This document shows positions 3,649 to 9,008 of a stretch of 9,008 nucleotides of DNA, in pieces. Where the stretch lies: IMG/VR virus record IMGVR_UViG_2703718855_000006, one strand, 5' to 3'. The notes beneath the pieces are model-generated. The model saw only the letters and a list, made by a program, of their open reading frames with translations. It made no database searches and was not told where the DNA came from. The first letter of the stretch is position 1. Each line of letters starts with the position of its first letter. Origin of the DNA: a virus (taxonomy: Duplodnaviria > Heunggongvirae > Uroviricota > Caudoviricetes). The translations under genes and the position numbers were made by a program.

Positions 3649-4241
3649 GCGTTAGTTTCTCCACAGTCACGACACGCCACGGCGCCCGGAGCTGCACACT
3701 CGCGGGCGTCATTACTTTCTGAAATGCAAAAGATTTTGTAGACCAGTGCTGCATGCTCCTGCAGCTTCGAAATTGAGAGATACAGCTCGTCGTTAATTGC
3801 TGTCTTCTCATGCGGTTCCACCACACCGTCTTCGATTGCCGAACGAATCTGTCTGGAATAACTGCCAATCTGTTCAATGACTTCCAGCAGGCGCTGGTTA
3901 ATATCGGCGTTGTCCACATCCTCGACGTCAGGAAGAGACACAAAGACGCCATTTGCAGACTGCGCCACAGCGTCAGCAATGAAGTGAGTTCCACCAGCAC
4001 GTTGCAAAATCATTGCCCATCCCAGCGGGAAAATCTGATCGCCATCGGCACGAAGGCGGTTAAATAATGCGTTTTCTGTTACATCCAGCCAGTCAGCTGC
4101 TTCAGCGTAACCACCCGGCAACGCTGCGATAGTTTTTCTGACAGCTTTCACGTACCACTCAGGCTGTTTTTCTACTTTCCAGTGATGCTTACCCACGGTT
4201 AGCCTCATCGTTCTGTGGTTTCTGTTAATCGATTTATCCAT
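3645..4241 (-). CDS. YmfL-like putative early regulatory protein; start codon uncertain
   Basis: Open frame 3645..4310. The first ATG (4310) would overlap cro by 77 nt. More plausible starts are the ATG at 4241 (8-nt overlap with the cro stop), the ATG at 4253 or 4208, or a GTG near 4196 preceded by GAGG. C-terminus is Cys-containing ([17 protein letters not shown]). Confidence 0.5.
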
Positions 4242-4434
4242 TAGATTTTTCATAAAGCTCAGGTTTAAATGGCAACCGTCCGCAAGTTCTATATGCAGCT
4301 TCTGCTGCACGTCCTTTTGGAATTAACTGGCCCGGACGGTTTCGCCACTGATAAACGGCTTCAGTTGTTATGCCGAAAAAAGCAGCAACTTTCTCAATAC
4401 TGCCGAAGTAGCTTTCGATATCGTCAGTTGTCAT
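4234..4434 (-). CDS. cro: Cro-like early repressor (66 aa)
   Basis: ORF track 4234..4434; GGAGGG Shine-Dalgarno 5 nt upstream of the ATG; divergent from the CI-like repressor across an operator-bearing intergenic region; same length as e14 CroE (66 aa). Confidence 0.7.
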   Translation of the reverse strand: MTTDDIESYFGSIEKVAAFFGITTEAVYQWRNRPGQLIPKGRAAEAAYRTCGRLPFKPELYEKSNG

Positions 4435-4531: not shown

Positions 4532-5158
4532 ATGGAAACGGTTGGTCAGCGTATAAAAGCTCTGAGAAGAGTTACCGGAACGTCCCAGAAAGAATTGGGT
4601 AAATTTTGTGGAGTAAGCGACGTTGCTGTGGGGTACTGGGAGAAAGACATCAATACCCCTGGTGGGGAGGCACTTTCGAAATTAGCGAAGTTCTTCAATA
4701 CGTCAATAGATTACATTCTTTATGGTGCTGAGTTTGAAGGCAAACTCGTCACAAACATGCGCAGAGTTCCTGTAATATCGTGGGTTCAGGCTGGGCAGTT
4801 TACTGAGTGCAGGGCAGCAGAAGTGTTTAGTGAAGTGGACAAGTGGGTAGATACATCATTAAAGATTGGTGATAACTCATTTGCATTAGAGGTTAAAGGT
4901 GACTCCATGACTAACCCTAATGGCCTCCCAACAATACCAGAAGGCGCAACAGTGATTGTAGATCCAGATGCAGAACCTCGTCATGGAAAAATAGTCATCG
5001 CTCGACTTGATGGAACAAACGAAGCTACAGTAAAAAAATTAGTCATCGATGGCCCTCAAAAGTTTTTAGTGCCATTAAATCCTCGGTATCCCAACATCCC
5101 TATCAATGGTAATTGCCTTATCATTGGTGTAGTCAAAGGAGTTCAATACGAACTCTAA
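4532..5158 (+). CDS. Phage repressor, CI/LexA type (XRE-family HTH plus S24 peptidase autocleavage domain)
   Basis: 208 aa. N-terminal HTH (QRIKALRRVTGTSQKELGKFCGVSDVAVGYWEKDINTPGGEALSKLAKFF). C-terminal S24 domain with catalytic Ser in GDSM and Lys in TVKKL. Candidate Ala-Gly cleavage site in WVQAGQF. Occupies the cohE position but is shorter than K-12 CohE (224 aa), suggesting a different immunity type. Confidence 0.9.
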   Translation: METVGQRIKALRRVTGTSQKELGKFCGVSDVAVGYWEKDINTPGGEALSKLAKFFNTSIDYILYGAEFEGKLVTNMRRVPVISWVQAGQFTECRAAEVFSEVDKWVDTSLKIGDNSFALEVKGDSMTNPNGLPTIPEGATVIVDPDAEPRHGKIVIARLDGTNEATVKKLVIDGPQKFLVPLNPRYPNIPINGNCLIIGVVKGVQYEL

Positions 5159-5180
5159 GACCTCTCTTCTCTAACTAAGG

Positions 5181-5213
5181 CACCAAACTAAGAAAAGTTT
5201 GGTGTTTTCTCTT
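5181..5213 (+). terminator. Rho-independent terminator downstream of the repressor gene
   Basis: CACCAAACT aagaaa AGTTTGGTG followed by TTTTCTCTT: a perfect 9-bp stem, 6-nt loop and T-rich tail, 23 nt after the repressor stop. Confidence 0.7.
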
Positions 5214-5241
5214 GCCATAATAACTAAGTTAAGTTAGATTT
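5212..5241 (+). promoter_or_regulatory. Putative pL-like promoter with a third operator-like site
   Basis: TTGCCA (5212-5217), 17-bp spacer, TAGATT (5235-5240). The spacer contains CTAAGTTAAGTTAG (5224-5237), closely similar to the operator CTAAGTTTTATTAG next to cro. The promoter is oriented toward the 68-aa gene and xis/int. Confidence 0.35.
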
Positions 5242-5320
5242 TATATCAAAGATAACGAACAGGCAGGACGCCCACGAAGTAGCCGCCTGGGGCATATGAA
5301 GTCCAGGATGATTCGTTAGC

Positions 5321-5347
5321 AACAAAAAAGCGCCCTACAGGACGCTT
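5321..5347 (-). terminator. Rho-independent terminator for minus-strand transcription
   Basis: Minus strand reads AAGCGtCCTgtAGGgCGCTT followed by TTTTTTGTT. It lies downstream (minus sense) of the 144-aa gene and beyond the antisense of the 68-aa gene. Confidence 0.6.
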
Positions 5348-5405
5348 AGCTCTTTAACAATCTGGTCCCCATCAACAAGTAACTGATAACTTGAGGAGGT
5401 GTGAA

Positions 5406-5612
5406 ATGCACAAAACAGAACCAAAAATCGTCGCACCCGGATACACAAATGAGGAAATTTACGAGTGGATGGCAAAGAAGCTGGCAGCTATAAACCAGCT
5501 TCGTGAAGTGCTGTCTTATCGACAGGAAACAATAGACTCCTTAAAAAAACTGGATCAGGAAATCACGGTTTTATCACAGGATGTTACTTTAGATATTGTG
5601 CAGACAAATTAG
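5406..5612 (+). CDS. Hypothetical small acidic coiled-coil protein (68 aa); accessory gene
   Basis: ATG at 5406 with a strong GAGGAGGTG Shine-Dalgarno 4-5 nt upstream (the ORF track began at an upstream TTG). MHKTEPKIVAPGYTNEEIYEWMAKKLAAINQLREVLSYRQETIDSLKKLDQEITVLSQDVTLDIVQTN. Its 3' end overlaps the convergent 144-aa gene by 29 nt. Confidence 0.5.
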   Translation: MHKTEPKIVAPGYTNEEIYEWMAKKLAAINQLREVLSYRQETIDSLKKLDQEITVLSQDVTLDIVQTN

Positions 5613-6018
5613 GATCCCATTCATTTTCGTCAAAATCATCAAAGTGATGAATTTGTGATCTCCAGTCTCGATAATCTAAAAATTTCTGGGCGGTTACGCT
5701 TATTTTATCAAGCGTGAGTTCATCCTGAATTGAAAGAAGAAGTTCATCAAATTTCATCTCATTAATCTGTTTTGGCATCCAGTGATGCTTCATCAGAATA
5801 AGGTGAACCAGAGCTTTTTTCCCATTCAACTGATTATAGGGAGTGCCGAATTTCTTCCGGTGCTCATGTAAGACAAGGTCCAGAAGAGTAAGTAATGTTG
5901 CCCTTGATTCAACTTTGCTTATTTCGACTGATGACACTACCCCACTGATTTCAATGCCCCGATACTTTCCAACATTTTCACAGTGGGATTTGTACAGCGT
6001 ATAGATATTACCGGACAT
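5584..6018 (-). CDS. Hypothetical protein (144 aa); AT-rich accessory gene with a C-terminal R-x4-H motif (possible HEPN-like fold)
   Basis: ATG at 6018 with an AAGGA Shine-Dalgarno about 6 nt upstream. Roughly 30% GC on a sampled line versus 50% or more in the core phage genes. Motif RSQIHH near the C-terminus. Same slot and orientation as ymfI in e14, but a different size (144 vs 113 aa). Confidence 0.6.
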   Translation of the reverse strand: MSGNIYTLYKSHCENVGKYRGIEISGVVSSVEISKVESRATLLTLLDLVLHEHRKKFGTPYNQLNGKKALVHLILMKHHWMPKQINEMKFDELLLSIQDELTLDKISVTAQKFLDYRDWRSQIHHFDDFDENEWDPNLSAQYLK

Positions 6019-6034
6019 TTCTTTTCCTTTTGCG

Positions 6035-6085
6035 TTGTTGGGGATAACCAGATTAACCGAATCCTTGTTGTTGGGGAATAACCAG
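6035..6085. repeat. Two direct repeats in the upstream region of the 144-aa gene (candidate regulator binding sites)
   Basis: TTGTTGGGGATAACCAG (6035-6051) and TTGTTGGGGAATAACCAG (6068-6085), 33 bp apart centre to centre (about three helical turns). The reverse complement of the first contains TTATCCCCA, 8/9 to the DnaA-box consensus TTATCCACA. Confidence 0.5.
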
Positions 6086-6305
6086 GTCCACCTCGCCTGA
6101 TGTGGCTAAAAGCAGGCACATAACAGCTAAGTATTTTCAACCAGAGAGAATCCTTAGCGTTGTGGTGAATGCGGCTCAGCGCACGCGGGTTAAGGTTGAG
6201 GCTGACAGTCGACCTTCTGTGGATACCCACCCGTCTGGTGTGCAACCTTCGCCAGGCACCGGGAGGCACCCGGAACCACAACTTTATGCTGTGTGTAGTC
6301 TTGAC

Positions 6306-6349
6306 GGTACCAGTTTGTACCCTTGCTTCCGGCTGGTACCATCCTTTTT
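6306..6349 (+). terminator. Stem-loop with T-tract (candidate plus-strand terminator or RNA 3' end) inside the ORF-poor region upstream of xis
   Basis: GGTACCAG (6306-6313), a 19-nt loop, CTGGTACC (6333-6340), then ATCCTTTTTAC. No T-run on the opposite strand. Confidence 0.45.
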
Positions 6350-6511
6350 ACAAAACAGAGAAGAGCATCACCGGACGACGGGCTCATAACCCAATCCATC
6401 CATGCGGCAGTCATCGCAGGTGTTCTTCTCTGTTTTGTGGAGAAACTAACCGACCTTGCAGGGTCGATATGCAGAGACTGAACAGTTATTGAAGTAATAA
6501 GGTGATCGCAT

Positions 6512-6757
6512 ATGCTTCAAATGTTAACTCTTGAAGAATGGGCTTCTGAAAAATACAGAAGTAATCCTCCAAGCGTTTCCACGTTGCGTCGTTATGCTAA
6601 GCAGAATTTGTTTTGTCCACCGGCAATGAAACAAGGTCGGTTATGGCGAGTGCGTGAGGACGCCGAGTTAGTTGGAGAGCTGGTAACACCAGTAATTAAG
6701 AAAAATGACTCATTACTTTTGCAACGGATTTTGAGTGATGGCAGCCAGACCGCGTAA
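6512..6757 (+). CDS. xis: Excisionase, lambda Xis family (81 aa)
   Basis: MLQMLTLEEWASEKYRSNPPSVSTLRRYAKQNLFCPPAMKQGRLWRV parallels lambda Xis (MYLTLQEWNARQRRPRSLETVRRWVRECRIFPPPVKDGREYLF). AAGGTGAT Shine-Dalgarno upstream. Overlaps the int start by 20 nt; length and overlap match e14 xisE. Confidence 0.85.
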   Translation: MLQMLTLEEWASEKYRSNPPSVSTLRRYAKQNLFCPPAMKQGRLWRVREDAELVGELVTPVIKKNDSLLLQRILSDGSQTA

Positions 6758-7865
6758 GAATAATGTTTCAGTCCCTAACTTATATCCGCTTTATAGCCGA
6801 AAGGTAAATAAAGTCTATTGGCGGTATAAGCATCCAATAACAGGGAAATTCCATGCTTTGGGAACAAACGAAGCTGAAGCTATCGCTATTGCCACTGAAG
6901 CCAATACGCGCCTGGCTGAACAAAGAACCCGGCAGATTCTGGCCATCAGTGACAGGATCGCAACCAGCAAAGGGAAAGCAATCACAACGTCAACTTGGTT
7001 AGATCGCTATCAAGCGATCCAGAATGACAGGCTGAAAAGTGGTGATATAAAGCTCAACACCTACAAGCAGAAAGCCAAACCTGTCTCCTTACTTAGAGAA
7101 CGGGCAGGATTGAAGCTAATTTCAGCTGTTGATGTCCGGGATATTGCACAATTACTTGATGAGTATATTGCCGCTGGGCAACCGAGAATGGCACAAGTAG
7201 TTCGCTCCGTCCTGATTGATGTTTTCAAAGAGGCGCAGCACTACGGAGAAGTACCTCCTGGCTATAACCCTGCATTAGCTACTAAACAGCCAAGAAGAAA
7301 AATTACCCGACAACGGCTGAGCCTCGAAGAATGGAAAAAAATATTCGATATCGCAGATGCCAGCCATCGTTACATGGGAAATGCCATGCTGCTAGCCTTG
7401 GTTACTGGTCAGCGGTTAGGTGATATTTCACGTATGAAATTTAGCGATATTTGGGATGATCATCTTCATGTCGTACAAGAAAAGACAGGGAGCAAAATCG
7501 CAATTCCGCTTTCTCTTCGCCTCAATGCGATTAACTGGAGTTTACGTGATGTAGTAGCTCGCTGCCGTGACTATGCAGTCAGCCCATACTTAGTGCATTT
7601 TTTCCGTTCAACTTCGCAGGCAGAACGTGGAGCACAGGTAAAATCCAATACATTGACGATGAATTTTAGTAAAGCAAGAGATTTAGCAGAAATTAACTGG
7701 GGGGAAGGTTCACCTGCCACATTCCATGAGCAACGATCTTTATCTGAACGCCTTTACAAGGAACAGGGATTAGATACACAAAAACTACTTGGTCACAAAA
7801 CACAGCAACAAACCGATCGTTATCATGATGACCGTGGGAAAGGCTGGAGCAAAGTAGCTTTGTGA
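6738..7865 (+). CDS. int: Tyrosine site-specific integrase (lambda Int family, e14 IntE-like)
   Basis: 375 aa from the ATG at 6738 (the ORF track begins at GTG 6735). N-terminal arm-binding-type domain. Catalytic signature: TGQRLGDI (box I Arg), HEQRSLSERL (H-x-x-R), LLGHKTQQQTDRYHDD (nucleophile Tyr). Confidence 0.92.
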   Translation: MAARPRKNNVSVPNLYPLYSRKVNKVYWRYKHPITGKFHALGTNEAEAIAIATEANTRLAEQRTRQILAISDRIATSKGKAITTSTWLDRYQAIQNDRLKSGDIKLNTYKQKAKPVSLLRERAGLKLISAVDVRDIAQLLDEYIAAGQPRMAQVVRSVLIDVFKEAQHYGEVPPGYNPALATKQPRRKITRQRLSLEEWKKIFDIADASHRYMGNAMLLALVTGQRLGDISRMKFSDIWDDHLHVVQEKTGSKIAIPLSLRLNAINWSLRDVVARCRDYAVSPYLVHFFRSTSQAERGAQVKSNTLTMNFSKARDLAEINWGEGSPATFHEQRSLSERLYKEQGLDTQKLLGHKTQQQTDRYHDDRGKGWSKVAL

Positions 7866-8078: not shown

Positions 8079-9008
8079 CTAATTCTCTTTTATTAATTTC
8101 AGGGAATTACAGAGATTGGCAATTTTAGATTTGCATTCGAGAATAGTTATTGCTTTCTTTATTTCTCTGCATTTATTTAATCTTGCATTGAATACTAACC
8201 TTTCAAAATTATTTATCAGCTTATTTTGAGGTTCTGAGCAGCGCAGCTTATATAGTTTAAACAACCCAGTTCTTTGATAGTCATATCCATACTTTGACAA
8301 AAAGGCCATCAGGATAAAATGGAAACAGTTAATTAAATGCCATTTATTGCAAGATTTGTCACTCATTATGGTGGATATGTACTTGCAAACCTGTGTATAG
8401 TCTAATTCAGACTCTGATTTAGATTTGAATTCTGAATAAGTAATAACTCCTGTAGGTGTAATCATTTTTTCCACAATACTAATAAGGTCATCCTTGAAAA
8501 AATGGTCTACAGCATGCTCATTATCATAACCAGTCCCACTCAACATCGAAGCATCGCAAAATATATTTTGCATGGTTTTAATATACTTCACAAAATAAAT
8601 ATCGTTCTTTTCTGAAAGTGTTACATCTAAATATATCAACTCTCTTTCGAACTTTATACACCAAGCATAAAATGCTAAAAATTGATAACAAAAAGTTTGT
8701 AGGTAATATTTATCACCAATTGATTCATTATTTTTGTAATTATGCCATCCTTTAGTGCAATTTCCTGAAAAATTCCACAACCTATGATTCAATGACTCAG
8801 CTGAATCGAGTAAAGGCATTTTATATTTTGATATCGCCTCTTTGATTTTCTTCTTTTGTTCGTAGCTATGTTCAACTTTGATTTTGTAAACAATGAAATA
8901 TTTATTCCATAAAGGTGTGCATACACCTTTTATAAAAAATAATAAAACCGTAACTAATGCAGATACTAGTGCCGCCATAACAGCAGGAGCTGAAGTTATT
9001 TCAGACAT
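8079..9008 (-). CDS. Hypothetical membrane-anchored protein (309 aa), AT-rich cargo gene in the slot that holds lit in e14; candidate phage-exclusion or defence protein
   Basis: ORF track 8079..9008. Predicted N-terminal transmembrane helix (APAVMAALVSALVTVLLFFIKGV). Roughly 25-30% GC on sampled lines versus about 55% in int. Convergent with int. No HEXXH motif, so it is not the Lit metalloprotease. The start codon coincides with the window end, so the true N-terminus and promoter are not visible. Confidence 0.7.
   Translation of the reverse strand: MSEITSAPAVMAALVSALVTVLLFFIKGVCTPLWNKYFIVYKIKVEHSYEQKKKIKEAISKYKMPLLDSAESLNHRLWNFSGNCTKGWHNYKNNESIGDKYYLQTFCYQFLAFYAWCIKFERELIYLDVTLSEKNDIYFVKYIKTMQNIFCDASMLSGTGYDNEHAVDHFFKDDLISIVEKMITPTGVITYSEFKSKSESELDYTQVCKYISTIMSDKSCNKWHLINCFHFILMAFLSKYGYDYQRTGLFKLYKLRCSEPQNKLINNFERLVFNARLNKCREIKKAITILECKSKIANLCNSLKLIKEN

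What the first reader, a model, noticed from the sequence alone, without database searches (positions are those of the whole stretch)
5391..6018. Convergent, overlapping AT-rich gene pair (68 aa and 144 aa) between the repressor and xis; possible toxin-antitoxin or abortive-infection moron
Two small genes with strong ribosome-binding sites converge and overlap by 29 nt at their 3' ends. A minus-strand intrinsic terminator (5321-5347) lies beyond the 68-aa gene, so the 144-aa mRNA would carry a 3' UTR fully antisense to the 68-aa gene. The 144-aa protein is helical in composition and carries R-S-Q-I-H-H near its C-terminus, which fits the R-x4-6-H motif of HEPN RNases; this is a weak, motif-only hint. 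The pair occupies the ymfI/ymfJ slot of e14 with different sizes, consistent with a variable accessory locus, and is AT-rich relative to the core phage genes.
Basis: partly seen in the sequence, partly recalled or inferred. Interest (0 to 1): 0.65.

Follow-up and report, generated by a model that had tools for sequence, protein, structure and literature searches.

The report
Conserved convergent prophage accessory gene pair

Summary
A 68-aa gene (5406-5612, +) and a 144-aa gene (5584-6018, -) converge and overlap by 29 nt. A minus-strand terminator (5347-5328 plus a T-run) lies beyond the 68-aa gene. The locus is AT-rich.

The 144-aa protein belongs to the uncharacterised 'ECs1072 family' (NCBIfam NF033230). 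The 68-aa protein is a YdfC-family protein: one long helix with a disordered N-terminus.

The pair is a real unit. Twelve of 13 diverse ECs1072-family loci carry a convergent ORF overlapping the 3' end. This partner is YdfC-like in eight, plus two weaker cases. The pair occurs in two different prophage slots: repressor to early-left operon, and late-gene regulator region to holin.

The HEPN idea fails. R-S-Q-I-H-H is not conserved, no HEPN profile hits any of 48 members, and a high-confidence model (pLDDT 94) has no structural neighbour.

In the window, the 68-aa gene is the first gene after a promoter that carries repressor operators. The 144-aa gene faces that transcription head-on. Published RNA-seq for the Salmonella ST64B homologues shows both genes transcribed in lysogens, with opposite changes on induction.

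My best reading is a lysogeny/lytic toggle module, possibly exclusion or toxin-antitoxin-like. The biochemical function remains unknown.

The parts
5177..5209 (+). Intrinsic terminator of the repressor gene (4532-5158)
   Evidence: 13-bp hairpin followed by UUUUCUCUU; -15.4 kcal/mol, z=-4.7, 0 of 200 shuffles fold as well.
5186..5240 (+). OL/PL-type control region: two operator copies (5186-5201, 5222-5237) and a sigma-70-like promoter (TTGCCA-17-TAGATT, 5212-5240) aimed at the 68-aa gene
   Evidence: AACTAAGN5TTAG occurs 4 times in the window against 0.13 expected. All copies lie in the cro/repressor intergenic region (4445, 4494) or here. Promoter from the scan. A different-immunity relative (L099) has the same layout with its own operator.
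5318..5347 (-). Intrinsic terminator for the minus-strand gene of the slot
   Evidence: Scan hit 5347-5328 plus T-run. Stronger on the minus strand. Lies in the left flank shared with cassettes that carry other minus-strand ORFs (L005, L007, L008).
5349..5360 (+). rrn-type boxA-like sequence GCTCTTTAACAA in the leader of the 68-aa gene
   Evidence: Single match in the window, 0.04 expected. Conserved in the same position in L013, L005 and L007. Identity to boxA is from my own knowledge; function is inferred.
5406..5612 (+). 68-aa YdfC-family gene (partner)
   Evidence: phrog_1744 over full length. 38-39% identity to proteins annotated YdfC. Gap-free alignment with YdfC, ST64B Sb50 and other partners. 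AF2: residues 1-14 disordered, single helix 15-67, pLDDT 85, pTM 0.49.
5584..6018 (-). 144-aa ECs1072-family gene
   Evidence: NF033230 at 157.8 bits against a cut-off of 70. phrog_5286. 76 cluster representatives at 50% identity, nearly all full-length ones 143-161 aa. AF2 pLDDT 94.1, pTM 0.88, all-alpha. No structural neighbour.
5584..5612 (.). 29-nt dual-coding 3' overlap next to the GGATCC core (5612-5617) that encodes the family's W134-D-P
   Evidence: Sequence. The GGATCC core at the W-D-P codons is shared by 9 of 12 comparable loci. The partner reads x-D-P in the same register in 6 loci.
6019..6150 (-). Shared upstream leader/promoter region of the slot's minus-strand gene, with two CTGGTTATyCCCAACAAC repeats
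   Evidence: Near-identical up to the RBS in front of four unrelated ORFs (144, 171, 159 and 164 aa; alignment A4). Repeats 6040-6058 and 6074-6092. No consensus sigma-70 promoter found.

Best explanation
This is a conserved two-gene prophage accessory module. It pairs an ECs1072-family protein (144 aa, all-alpha, no known fold neighbour) with a YdfC-family single-helix protein (68 aa). The genes converge and share their 3' ends.

The small gene lies with the flow of a major lytic promoter. Here that is the operator-bearing early-left promoter just after the repressor gene; in ST64B and Klebsiella phages it is a promoter in the late-gene region upstream of the holin. The large gene lies against that flow and ends at its own terminator just short of the promoter.

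Proposed mechanism (inferred). In the lysogen the 144-aa protein is made from its own promoter. When the lytic promoter fires, head-on transcription and the resulting antisense RNA lower 144-aa expression. At the same time the single-helix partner accumulates and binds or neutralises the existing 144-aa protein. The module would therefore switch the 144-aa activity between the lysogenic and lytic states.

That activity is most likely useful in lysogens but incompatible with the phage's own lytic growth, for example exclusion or abortive infection of other phages. Its biochemistry is unknown.
For: Shown:
- The pairing and the convergent 3' overlap are kept in 12 of 13 diverse family loci, with overlaps of 29-212 nt. 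The partner is clearly YdfC-like in 8 loci and weakly or transitively so in 2.
- The pair moves between two different prophage slots: after the repressor (window, L012, L099) and between the late-regulator region and the holin (ST64B L003, Klebsiella L004).
- The relative reading frame across the GGATCC core is conserved.
- The flanks break just outside both genes, so the two move as one cassette.
- Operator copies overlap the promoter upstream of the partner in two different immunity types.
- A minus-strand terminator lies in the shared flank.
- The partner is a single helix with low pTM, so it probably works by binding something.

Literature:
- ST64B STMMW_20121 has the same length and the same 162-nt spacing after the holin as the L003 homologue (435 nt). 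It is transcribed from its own TSS, antisense to lytic genes, at 61-269 TPM in 16 of 17 conditions (4.9 in late stationary phase).
- Its partner STMMW_20131 (Sb50, 71-nt overlap) reads 23-258 TPM, while the neighbouring holin, Q and sb49 read 0.3-33.
- On peroxide or NO shock, which induce ST64B, the large gene falls from 269 to 113 and 105 TPM and the partner rises from 108 to 148 and 258 TPM (PMC7067206 text and Table S5).
- ECs1072 was detectable and growth-phase regulated on a Sakai microarray (PMC2241611).
Against: - No experiment or homology assigns any activity to either protein.
- No consensus promoter for the 144-aa gene was found in this window.
- In ST64B both genes are transcribed in lysogens, so the partner is not strictly lytic-phase there. 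The induction shifts are about 2-fold and come from single TPM values.
- One family locus (L011) lacks a partner, and YdfC proper occurs without an ECs1072 gene in Qin-type operons. The link is therefore not obligatory in either direction.
- A6 and A8 frameshift variants of the partner coexist with an intact 144-aa gene.
Confidence: 0.4

Rival explanations
1. Protein toxin-antitoxin or abortive-infection pair. The 144-aa protein is a toxin or effector kept in check by the 68-aa single-helix antitoxin, and infection or stress releases it.
For: Two small conserved, tightly linked genes in moron slots. The partner is a disordered N-terminus plus one helix, as many antitoxins are. Both ST64B homologues are transcribed in lysogens at similar levels. 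The neighbouring slots hold exclusion genes, e.g. lit in e14.
Against: The genes are not an operon. No toxin fold, motif or defence-family hit was found. In this window and in L099 the presumed antitoxin sits behind a repressor-controlled promoter. The partner is frameshifted in some genomes that keep an intact 144-aa gene. L011 has no partner.
Confidence: 0.25
2. Independent neighbours. The 68-aa gene is simply the ordinary first gene of the early-left operon (as ydfC is in Qin), and the 144-aa gene is an unrelated single-gene moron that inserted next to it. The overlap has no joint function.
For: YdfC proper occurs in ydfA-ydfB-ydfC-DicF-dicB operons without any ECs1072 gene. L011 carries an ECs1072 homologue alone. 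The slot also accepts single minus-strand ORFs with no partner.
Against: The pair recurs together, still overlapping and in the same frame register, in a completely different slot upstream of the holin and down to about 22% identity. The flank breakpoints enclose both genes.
Confidence: 0.15
3. Mainly an RNA-level brake on the lytic operon. Convergent transcription of the 144-aa gene interferes with early-left or late read-through and stabilises lysogeny. The proteins are secondary.
For: The 144-aa gene lies head-on inside a lytic transcription unit in both slot types. Terminators on both strands bracket the pair in ST64B. The two ST64B genes change in opposite directions on induction.
Against: Both proteins are conserved as proteins. 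The 144-aa gene shows 11 common synonymous and 0 common non-synonymous SNPs, although that sample was selected for identical protein. It gives a confident fold and has family-wide conserved residues. Other cassettes in the same slot could supply interference without this ORF.
Confidence: 0.1
4. HEPN-type RNase toxin.
For: Only the R-S-Q-I-H-H string at residues 120-125 of this one sequence.
Confidence: 0.02

Closest known systems
ST64B STMMW_20121 / STMMW_20131 (Sb50) locus of Salmonella Typhimurium (Owen et al. 2020, PMC7067206)
   Same: Homologous pair: ECs1072-family 144-aa gene plus YdfC-like partner. Convergent, with a 71-nt overlap. The large gene is antisense to lytic genes. That paper flagged it as a candidate accessory or regulatory gene transcribed from its own promoter in lysogens.
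   Different: It lies upstream of the holin in the late region, not beside the repressor. Protein identity is about 30%. The partner is longer and reads through the palindrome as W-D-P. That paper discusses STMMW_20121 only and does not mention a partner gene or a wider family.
ydfABC-dicF-dicB operon of the Qin prophage (E. coli K-12)
   Same: The 68-aa protein is a YdfC homologue. It occupies the same place, an early gene downstream of a repressor-controlled promoter, and is followed by an STnc100-like structured region.
   Different: Qin-type loci have DicF where this window has the antisense 144-aa gene. They carry no ECs1072 gene. YdfC itself has no known function.
e14 ymfJ/ymfI
   Same: Same slot between the repressor gene and ymfH-xis. 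Same convergent layout, with a 63-nt overlap.
   Different: No sequence similarity to either protein. Also uncharacterised.
Type I toxin-antitoxin loci with convergent 3'-overlapping transcripts (e.g. bsrG/SR4 and txpA/RatA on Bacillus prophages; from my own knowledge)
   Same: Convergent transcription units that overlap at their 3' ends on prophages, where the antisense overlap controls the partner mRNA.
   Different: In those loci one partner is a non-coding RNA and the toxin is a small hydrophobic peptide. Here both partners are conserved soluble proteins.
Repressor-adjacent exclusion/defence morons (lambda rexAB; BstA of BTP1; GiPD474 of Gifsy-1, PMC12724215)
   Same: Accessory genes close to the immunity region, expressed in lysogens and variable between related phages.
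   Different: No homology. rexAB is co-transcribed with cI on the same strand. No defence phenotype is known for this pair.

Membership tests
ECs1072 family phage-associated protein (NCBIfam NF033230) | Whole-protein score above the curated cut-off (70 bits) over the full model | tested here: met
   157.8 bits, E=1.7e-46, model positions 2-142 of 142. Also phrog_5286 positions 1-144 of 144.
YdfC family (68-aa partner) | Full-length sequence similarity to proteins annotated YdfC, with the shared N-terminal motif EPxxxxP/x-G-x-T/S-x-E/D-E/Q-I/L-x-E/D-W | tested here: met
   tblastn 38-39% identity over residues 1-66, E=1e-8 to 2e-8, to ydfC/'YdfC family' genes. Gap-free alignment. No curated Pfam or NCBIfam model matched, so this rests on pairwise and PHROG evidence.
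HEPN RNase superfamily | Conserved R-x(4-6)-H catalytic motif | tested here: not met
   R120/H124/H125 vary among the four closest homologues. That segment has no conserved column in 48 members.
HEPN RNase superfamily | HEPN fold or profile similarity | tested here: not met
Type II toxin-antitoxin system | Two adjacent genes co-transcribed as one operon | tested here: not met
   The genes are on opposite strands and converge. The same holds in 12 of 13 loci.
Type II toxin-antitoxin system | Toxin belonging to a recognised toxin superfamily | tested here: not met
   No Pfam, NCBIfam (other than ECs1072), PADLOC, PDB or BFVD match.
Type II toxin-antitoxin system | Toxicity of one product, neutralised by direct binding of the other | not testable with these tools
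   Needs expression and binding experiments.
Type I toxin-antitoxin system | Small hydrophobic toxin peptide plus non-coding antisense RNA | tested here: not met
   Both partners are conserved soluble proteins. Only the convergent 3' overlap resembles type I.
Prophage moron / accessory cassette | Sits in a slot that varies between otherwise syntenic phages | tested here: met
   Conserved flanks with at least five alternative contents. 2816 of 5426 E. coli genomes match some part of the query; 406 match at least 80% of it.
Prophage moron / accessory cassette | Own promoter and terminator | tested here: inconclusive
   A terminator is present. No consensus promoter was found upstream of the 144-aa gene. 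A TSS is reported for the ST64B homologue.
Prophage moron / accessory cassette | Transcribed in the lysogen while lytic genes are silent | not testable with these tools
   Shown in the literature for the ST64B homologues only. Not known for this prophage.
Known anti-phage defence systems (PADLOC-DB 2.0) | Match to any defence-system protein model | tested here: not met
   No hits for either protein or for the ST64B homologues.

The most novel reading that the evidence does not exclude
The ECs1072/YdfC pair is a new kind of prophage two-protein system. A lysogeny-expressed effector with a previously unseen all-alpha fold (for example an exclusion or abortive-infection factor) is switched off for the phage's own lytic cycle in two ways: by a single-helix YdfC-family protein made as the first product of a lytic promoter, and by antisense transcription across the shared 3' ends. 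This would also give the first function to the YdfC family of Qin-type prophages.
Probability: 0.25. Interest if true: 0.75.

Novelty: new variant of a known kind. Interest (0 to 1): 0.55.

Why it matters
About 7% of complete E. coli genomes (406 of 5426) carry this exact region. Relatives occur in Shigella, Salmonella, Klebsiella, Serratia, Arsenophonus and in phage-plasmids.

The Salmonella homologue is one of a few prophage genes singled out as strongly and independently transcribed in lysogens, yet nothing is known about what it does.

Three results turn an anonymous 'hypothetical protein' into a defined two-gene system that can be tested with simple genetics. The gene always comes with a YdfC-like partner. 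The two genes are wired in opposite directions relative to a lytic promoter. The large protein has a confident fold with no known relative. The work also removes a misleading HEPN lead.

Tried and rejected
- Defence and toxin-antitoxin libraries: PADLOC was negative for both proteins, the ST64B pair and the alternative cassette ORFs.
- Fold searches: BFVD gave nothing below E=0.6. AFDB50 was unavailable.
- Wider locus retrieval: the 48-member alignment was too divergent to search with. The genome-contig scan gave only 3 loci. The viral-contig scan returned 80 loci that all encode the identical protein.
- Homology of e14 YmfJ/YmfI to the pair: none.
- Promoter for the 144-aa gene: none at 8 or more of 12 consensus positions.
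- Literature: ECs1072, YdfC, STMMW_20121 and general convergent/antisense prophage searches found no functional study. GiPD474 is an unrelated ATPase.
- The inverted repeat at the cassette borders (5359-5378 / 6035-6054, 75% complementary) was considered as a recombination or common regulatory site. It is too weak to claim.
- The mir-5880 hit at 2925-2999 is a chance match in a repetitive coding stretch.

Full report
**Context.** The window is the immunity and integration end of an e14/SfIV-like lambdoid prophage of E. coli.
- cro lies at 4234-4434(-).
- A LexA-like S24 repressor lies at 4532-5158(+) (Peptidase_S24 E=9e-28).
- Excisionase lies at 6512-6757(+) and integrase at 6735-7865(+).
- The region 5160-6471 is 98-99% identical to prophages in hundreds of E. 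coli genomes and to Shigella phage SfIV.

**Observation.**
- The 68-aa ORF starts at the ATG at 5406, behind GAGGAGG, and ends at 5612.
- The 144-aa ORF runs 6018 to 5584 on the minus strand.
- The two share 29 nt.
- A minus-strand intrinsic terminator lies at 5347-5328 with a T-run. It folds at -11.5 kcal/mol on the minus strand and is weaker, with no U-run, on the plus strand.
- GC is 0.37-0.40 across the pair, against 0.50-0.57 in the replication genes.
- A 9-bp hairpin with a poor U-tail at 5477-5502 on the minus strand might stop some transcripts earlier.

**What the two proteins are.** The 144-aa protein is a member of NCBIfam NF033230, 'ECs1072 family phage-associated protein' (157.8 bits against a cut-off of 70), and of phrog_5286. 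Both families have no known function.
- A full HMMER scan of 1.84 billion cluster representatives found only 76 relatives. Nearly all the full-length ones are 143-161 aa.
- Where I looked, they sit in phage contexts in E. coli, Shigella, E. albertii, Salmonella, Klebsiella and Serratia, on Klebsiella and Arsenophonus plasmids, and in metagenomes.
- In a 48-member alignment W134 is invariant, and L50, R54, L64, G66, A69 and H72 are nearly so.
- AlphaFold2 with that alignment gives a confident all-alpha model (pLDDT 94.1, pTM 0.88).

The 68-aa protein is phrog_1744. It is 38-39% identical over its whole length to proteins annotated YdfC in Qin-type phages. Alone it is predicted as a disordered N-terminus plus one long helix (residues 15-67, pLDDT 85, pTM 0.49). 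That shape suggests it acts by binding something.

**HEPN is rejected.** Three lines of evidence agree.
- R120, H124 and H125 already vary among the closest homologues, and the segment is unconserved family-wide.
- None of the 48 members hits a HEPN-clan Pfam model at E<=1. The PDB profile search is empty.

**The pair is a unit.** I examined 13 distinct family loci spanning 100% to about 22% identity.
- Twelve have a convergent ORF overlapping the 3' end of the family gene. The overlaps are 29, 64, 44, 35, 56, 74, 71, 95, 197, 212, 101 and 101 nt.
- In eight loci the partner carries the YdfC-type motif and aligns without gaps over 60 columns.
- In two more (L104 at E=0.0017, and L103 through L104) the relationship is weak or transitive. 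In two it is unresolved. One locus (L011) has no partner.
- The overlap passes the family's W-D-P codons, which sit on a GGATCC core. In six loci the partner reads x-D-P on the other strand in the same register. In ST64B, Klebsiella and Serratia the DNA is the perfect palindrome TGGGATCCCA, so both proteins carry W-D-P.
- Within E. coli, related prophages keep the flanks and swap the content. The left flank ends at 5317 or at 5362-5374, and the right flank resumes at 6025-6034 or at 6088. Both genes therefore move as one cassette.
- The alternative contents are unrelated ORFs of 171, 159, 164 and 63 aa on the minus strand or 91 aa on the plus strand. None is in any known family.
- The region upstream of the minus-strand gene, down to the RBS, is shared by four different ORFs. 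The terminator lies in the shared left flank. The slot therefore behaves as a fixed expression site with exchangeable ORFs.

**Wiring relative to phage transcription.**
- The operator pattern AACTAAGN5TTAG occurs four times in the window (0.13 expected). Two copies lie between cro and the repressor gene, and two lie just after the repressor gene at 5186 and 5222.
- The second of these overlaps the only good plus-strand promoter before the 68-aa gene (TTGCCA-17-TAGATT, 5212-5240).
- That promoter follows a strong terminator for the repressor gene (5177-5209, z=-4.7).
- An exact rrn-type boxA, GCTCTTTAACAA, lies in the leader at 5349-5360 (0.04 expected) and is conserved in divergent loci.
- In L099, a relative with a different repressor, an 11/12 consensus promoter upstream of the partner overlaps that phage's own operator. 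The same operator is repeated three times in its cro/repressor intergenic region.
- So in repressor-adjacent copies the partner is the first gene of the repressor-controlled early-left operon, just as ydfC is in Qin-type operons. The ECs1072 gene faces that operon head-on.
- In ST64B and in Klebsiella phage KPP5665-2 the pair lies upstream of the holin. The partner again lies with the lytic direction and the ECs1072 gene against it.
- ST64B has a 10/12 promoter just upstream of the partner. A plus-strand terminator for the ECs1072 gene lies inside the partner's coding region. A minus-strand terminator lies before the holin.

**Expression evidence from the literature.** STMMW_20121 of ST64B in S. 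Typhimurium D23580 is 435 nt long and starts 162 nt after the holin gene. These values match the L003 homologue exactly. Its neighbour STMMW_20131 matches Sb50, with the same 71-nt overlap.
- Owen et al. 2020 report that STMMW_20121 is transcribed from its own promoter in almost all conditions, antisense to the lytic genes. They name it a candidate accessory or regulatory gene (PMC7067206).
- Their Table S5 gives 61-269 TPM for it in 16 conditions and 4.9 in late stationary phase. The partner reads 23-258 TPM. The holin reads 0.3-33, and Q and sb49 read below 8.
- Under peroxide and nitric-oxide shock, which induce ST64B, the large gene drops from 269 to 113 and 105 TPM. The partner rises from 108 to 148 and 258 TPM.
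- ECs1072 itself was detectable and growth-phase regulated on a Sakai microarray (PMC2241611).

**Interpretation.** Two conclusions are well supported. The locus is a conserved, mobile two-gene accessory module, and the module is oppositely wired relative to a lytic promoter.

The rest is inferred. When the lytic promoter fires, head-on transcription and antisense RNA would reduce the 144-aa mRNA, while the helical partner accumulates and neutralises the protein. Its activity, useful in the lysogen, would then not interfere with lytic growth.

An exclusion or abortive-infection role is the most natural guess for such a gene in such a slot, but nothing tested here shows it.

A classical protein toxin-antitoxin pair remains possible. 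Several facts count against it:
- the genes converge rather than form an operon;
- the partner's promoter carries operators in this window;
- one family locus lacks a partner;
- natural A6 and A8 frameshift variants at the A7 tract (5545-5551) truncate or recode the partner while the 144-aa gene stays intact.

The partner is nevertheless intact in 83 of 83 loci that were not selected on it. Its common polymorphisms are 7 synonymous against 8 non-synonymous, which points to moderate purifying selection.

**Novelty.** The ECs1072 family is named, and the ST64B member has been flagged as lysogen-expressed. In the literature I could search, I found no description of any of the following:
- the conserved pairing with a YdfC-family protein;
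- the conserved overlapping geometry;
- the recurrence in two slots;
- the opposite wiring.

I rate it a new variant of a known kind, a prophage accessory module, of moderate interest. It would rank higher if a defence or self-immunity function is demonstrated.

Noticed in passing
window 6120-6480 (+), especially 6129-6352: The GC-rich 'non-coding' stretch between the 144-aa gene and xis gives a sub-threshold match to the prophage sRNA family STnc100 (31.8 bits; gathering score 47). It folds far better than shuffles (z=-3.67). RefSeq annotates it as ymfH in e14 or as a 'frameshifted hypothetical protein'. A bona fide STnc100 (108 bits) lies head-to-head with the ECs1072 homologue in Klebsiella phage KPP5665-2. 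STnc100-like sequence follows DicF in Qin-type loci.
   Followed up: partly
window 6301-6471: A 171-bp piece is conserved at 92-96% identity, with no annotated feature, in a large share of the E. coli genomes matched. It contains a long hairpin with 18-nt arms (6350-6367 / 6421-6438, 94% complementary) just upstream of xis here and of yfdP in relatives.
   Followed up: no
window 5349-5360 (+): An exact rrn-type boxA sequence, GCTCTTTAACAA, lies in the leader of the early-left transcript directly after the bidirectional hairpin. This suggests Nus-dependent antitermination of that operon. It is conserved in L013, L005 and L007.
   Followed up: partly
window 5318-6087 and loci L005-L010: The slot between the repressor gene and the ymfH-like region is a cassette hot-spot with fixed flanks. 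Alternatives are unrelated ORFs of 171, 159, 164 and 63 aa (minus strand) or 91 aa (plus strand). None is in Pfam or PADLOC.
   Followed up: partly
L108 1872-2459 (E. coli e14): e14 ymfJ and ymfI occupy the same slot and also converge, with a 63-nt overlap, yet are not homologous to the 68/144-aa pair. The convergent-overlap layout therefore recurs with different proteins.
   Followed up: partly
window 5545-5551: An A7 tract lies inside the 68-aa gene. A6 and A8 variants in other genomes give 61-aa and 80-aa frameshifted partners, with the 144-aa gene intact in 6 of 7 such loci. This could be slippage-prone variation or assembly error.
   Followed up: partly
window 5612-5619 and L003, L004, L016: The family's invariant W-D-P is encoded on a GGATCC core. 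In ST64B, Klebsiella and Serratia it is the perfect palindrome TGGGATCCCA, and both proteins read W-D-P from the same DNA. In the window one base change turns the partner's TGG into the TAG stop.
   Followed up: partly
window 8079-9008 (-): A 309-aa ORF with very low GC (about 0.30) and a hydrophobic N-terminus lies just beyond the integrase gene, where e14 carries the exclusion gene lit. It has no significant hit in Pfam, NCBIfam, PHROGs or PADLOC. It starts at the last base of the window.
   Followed up: no
window 5359-5378 and 6035-6054: A 20-nt inverted repeat (75% complementary) sits at the two borders of the cassette, upstream of each gene's RBS on its own strand. A second direct copy lies at 6074-6092. 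It may be a chance match, a shared leader element or a recombination boundary.
   Followed up: no
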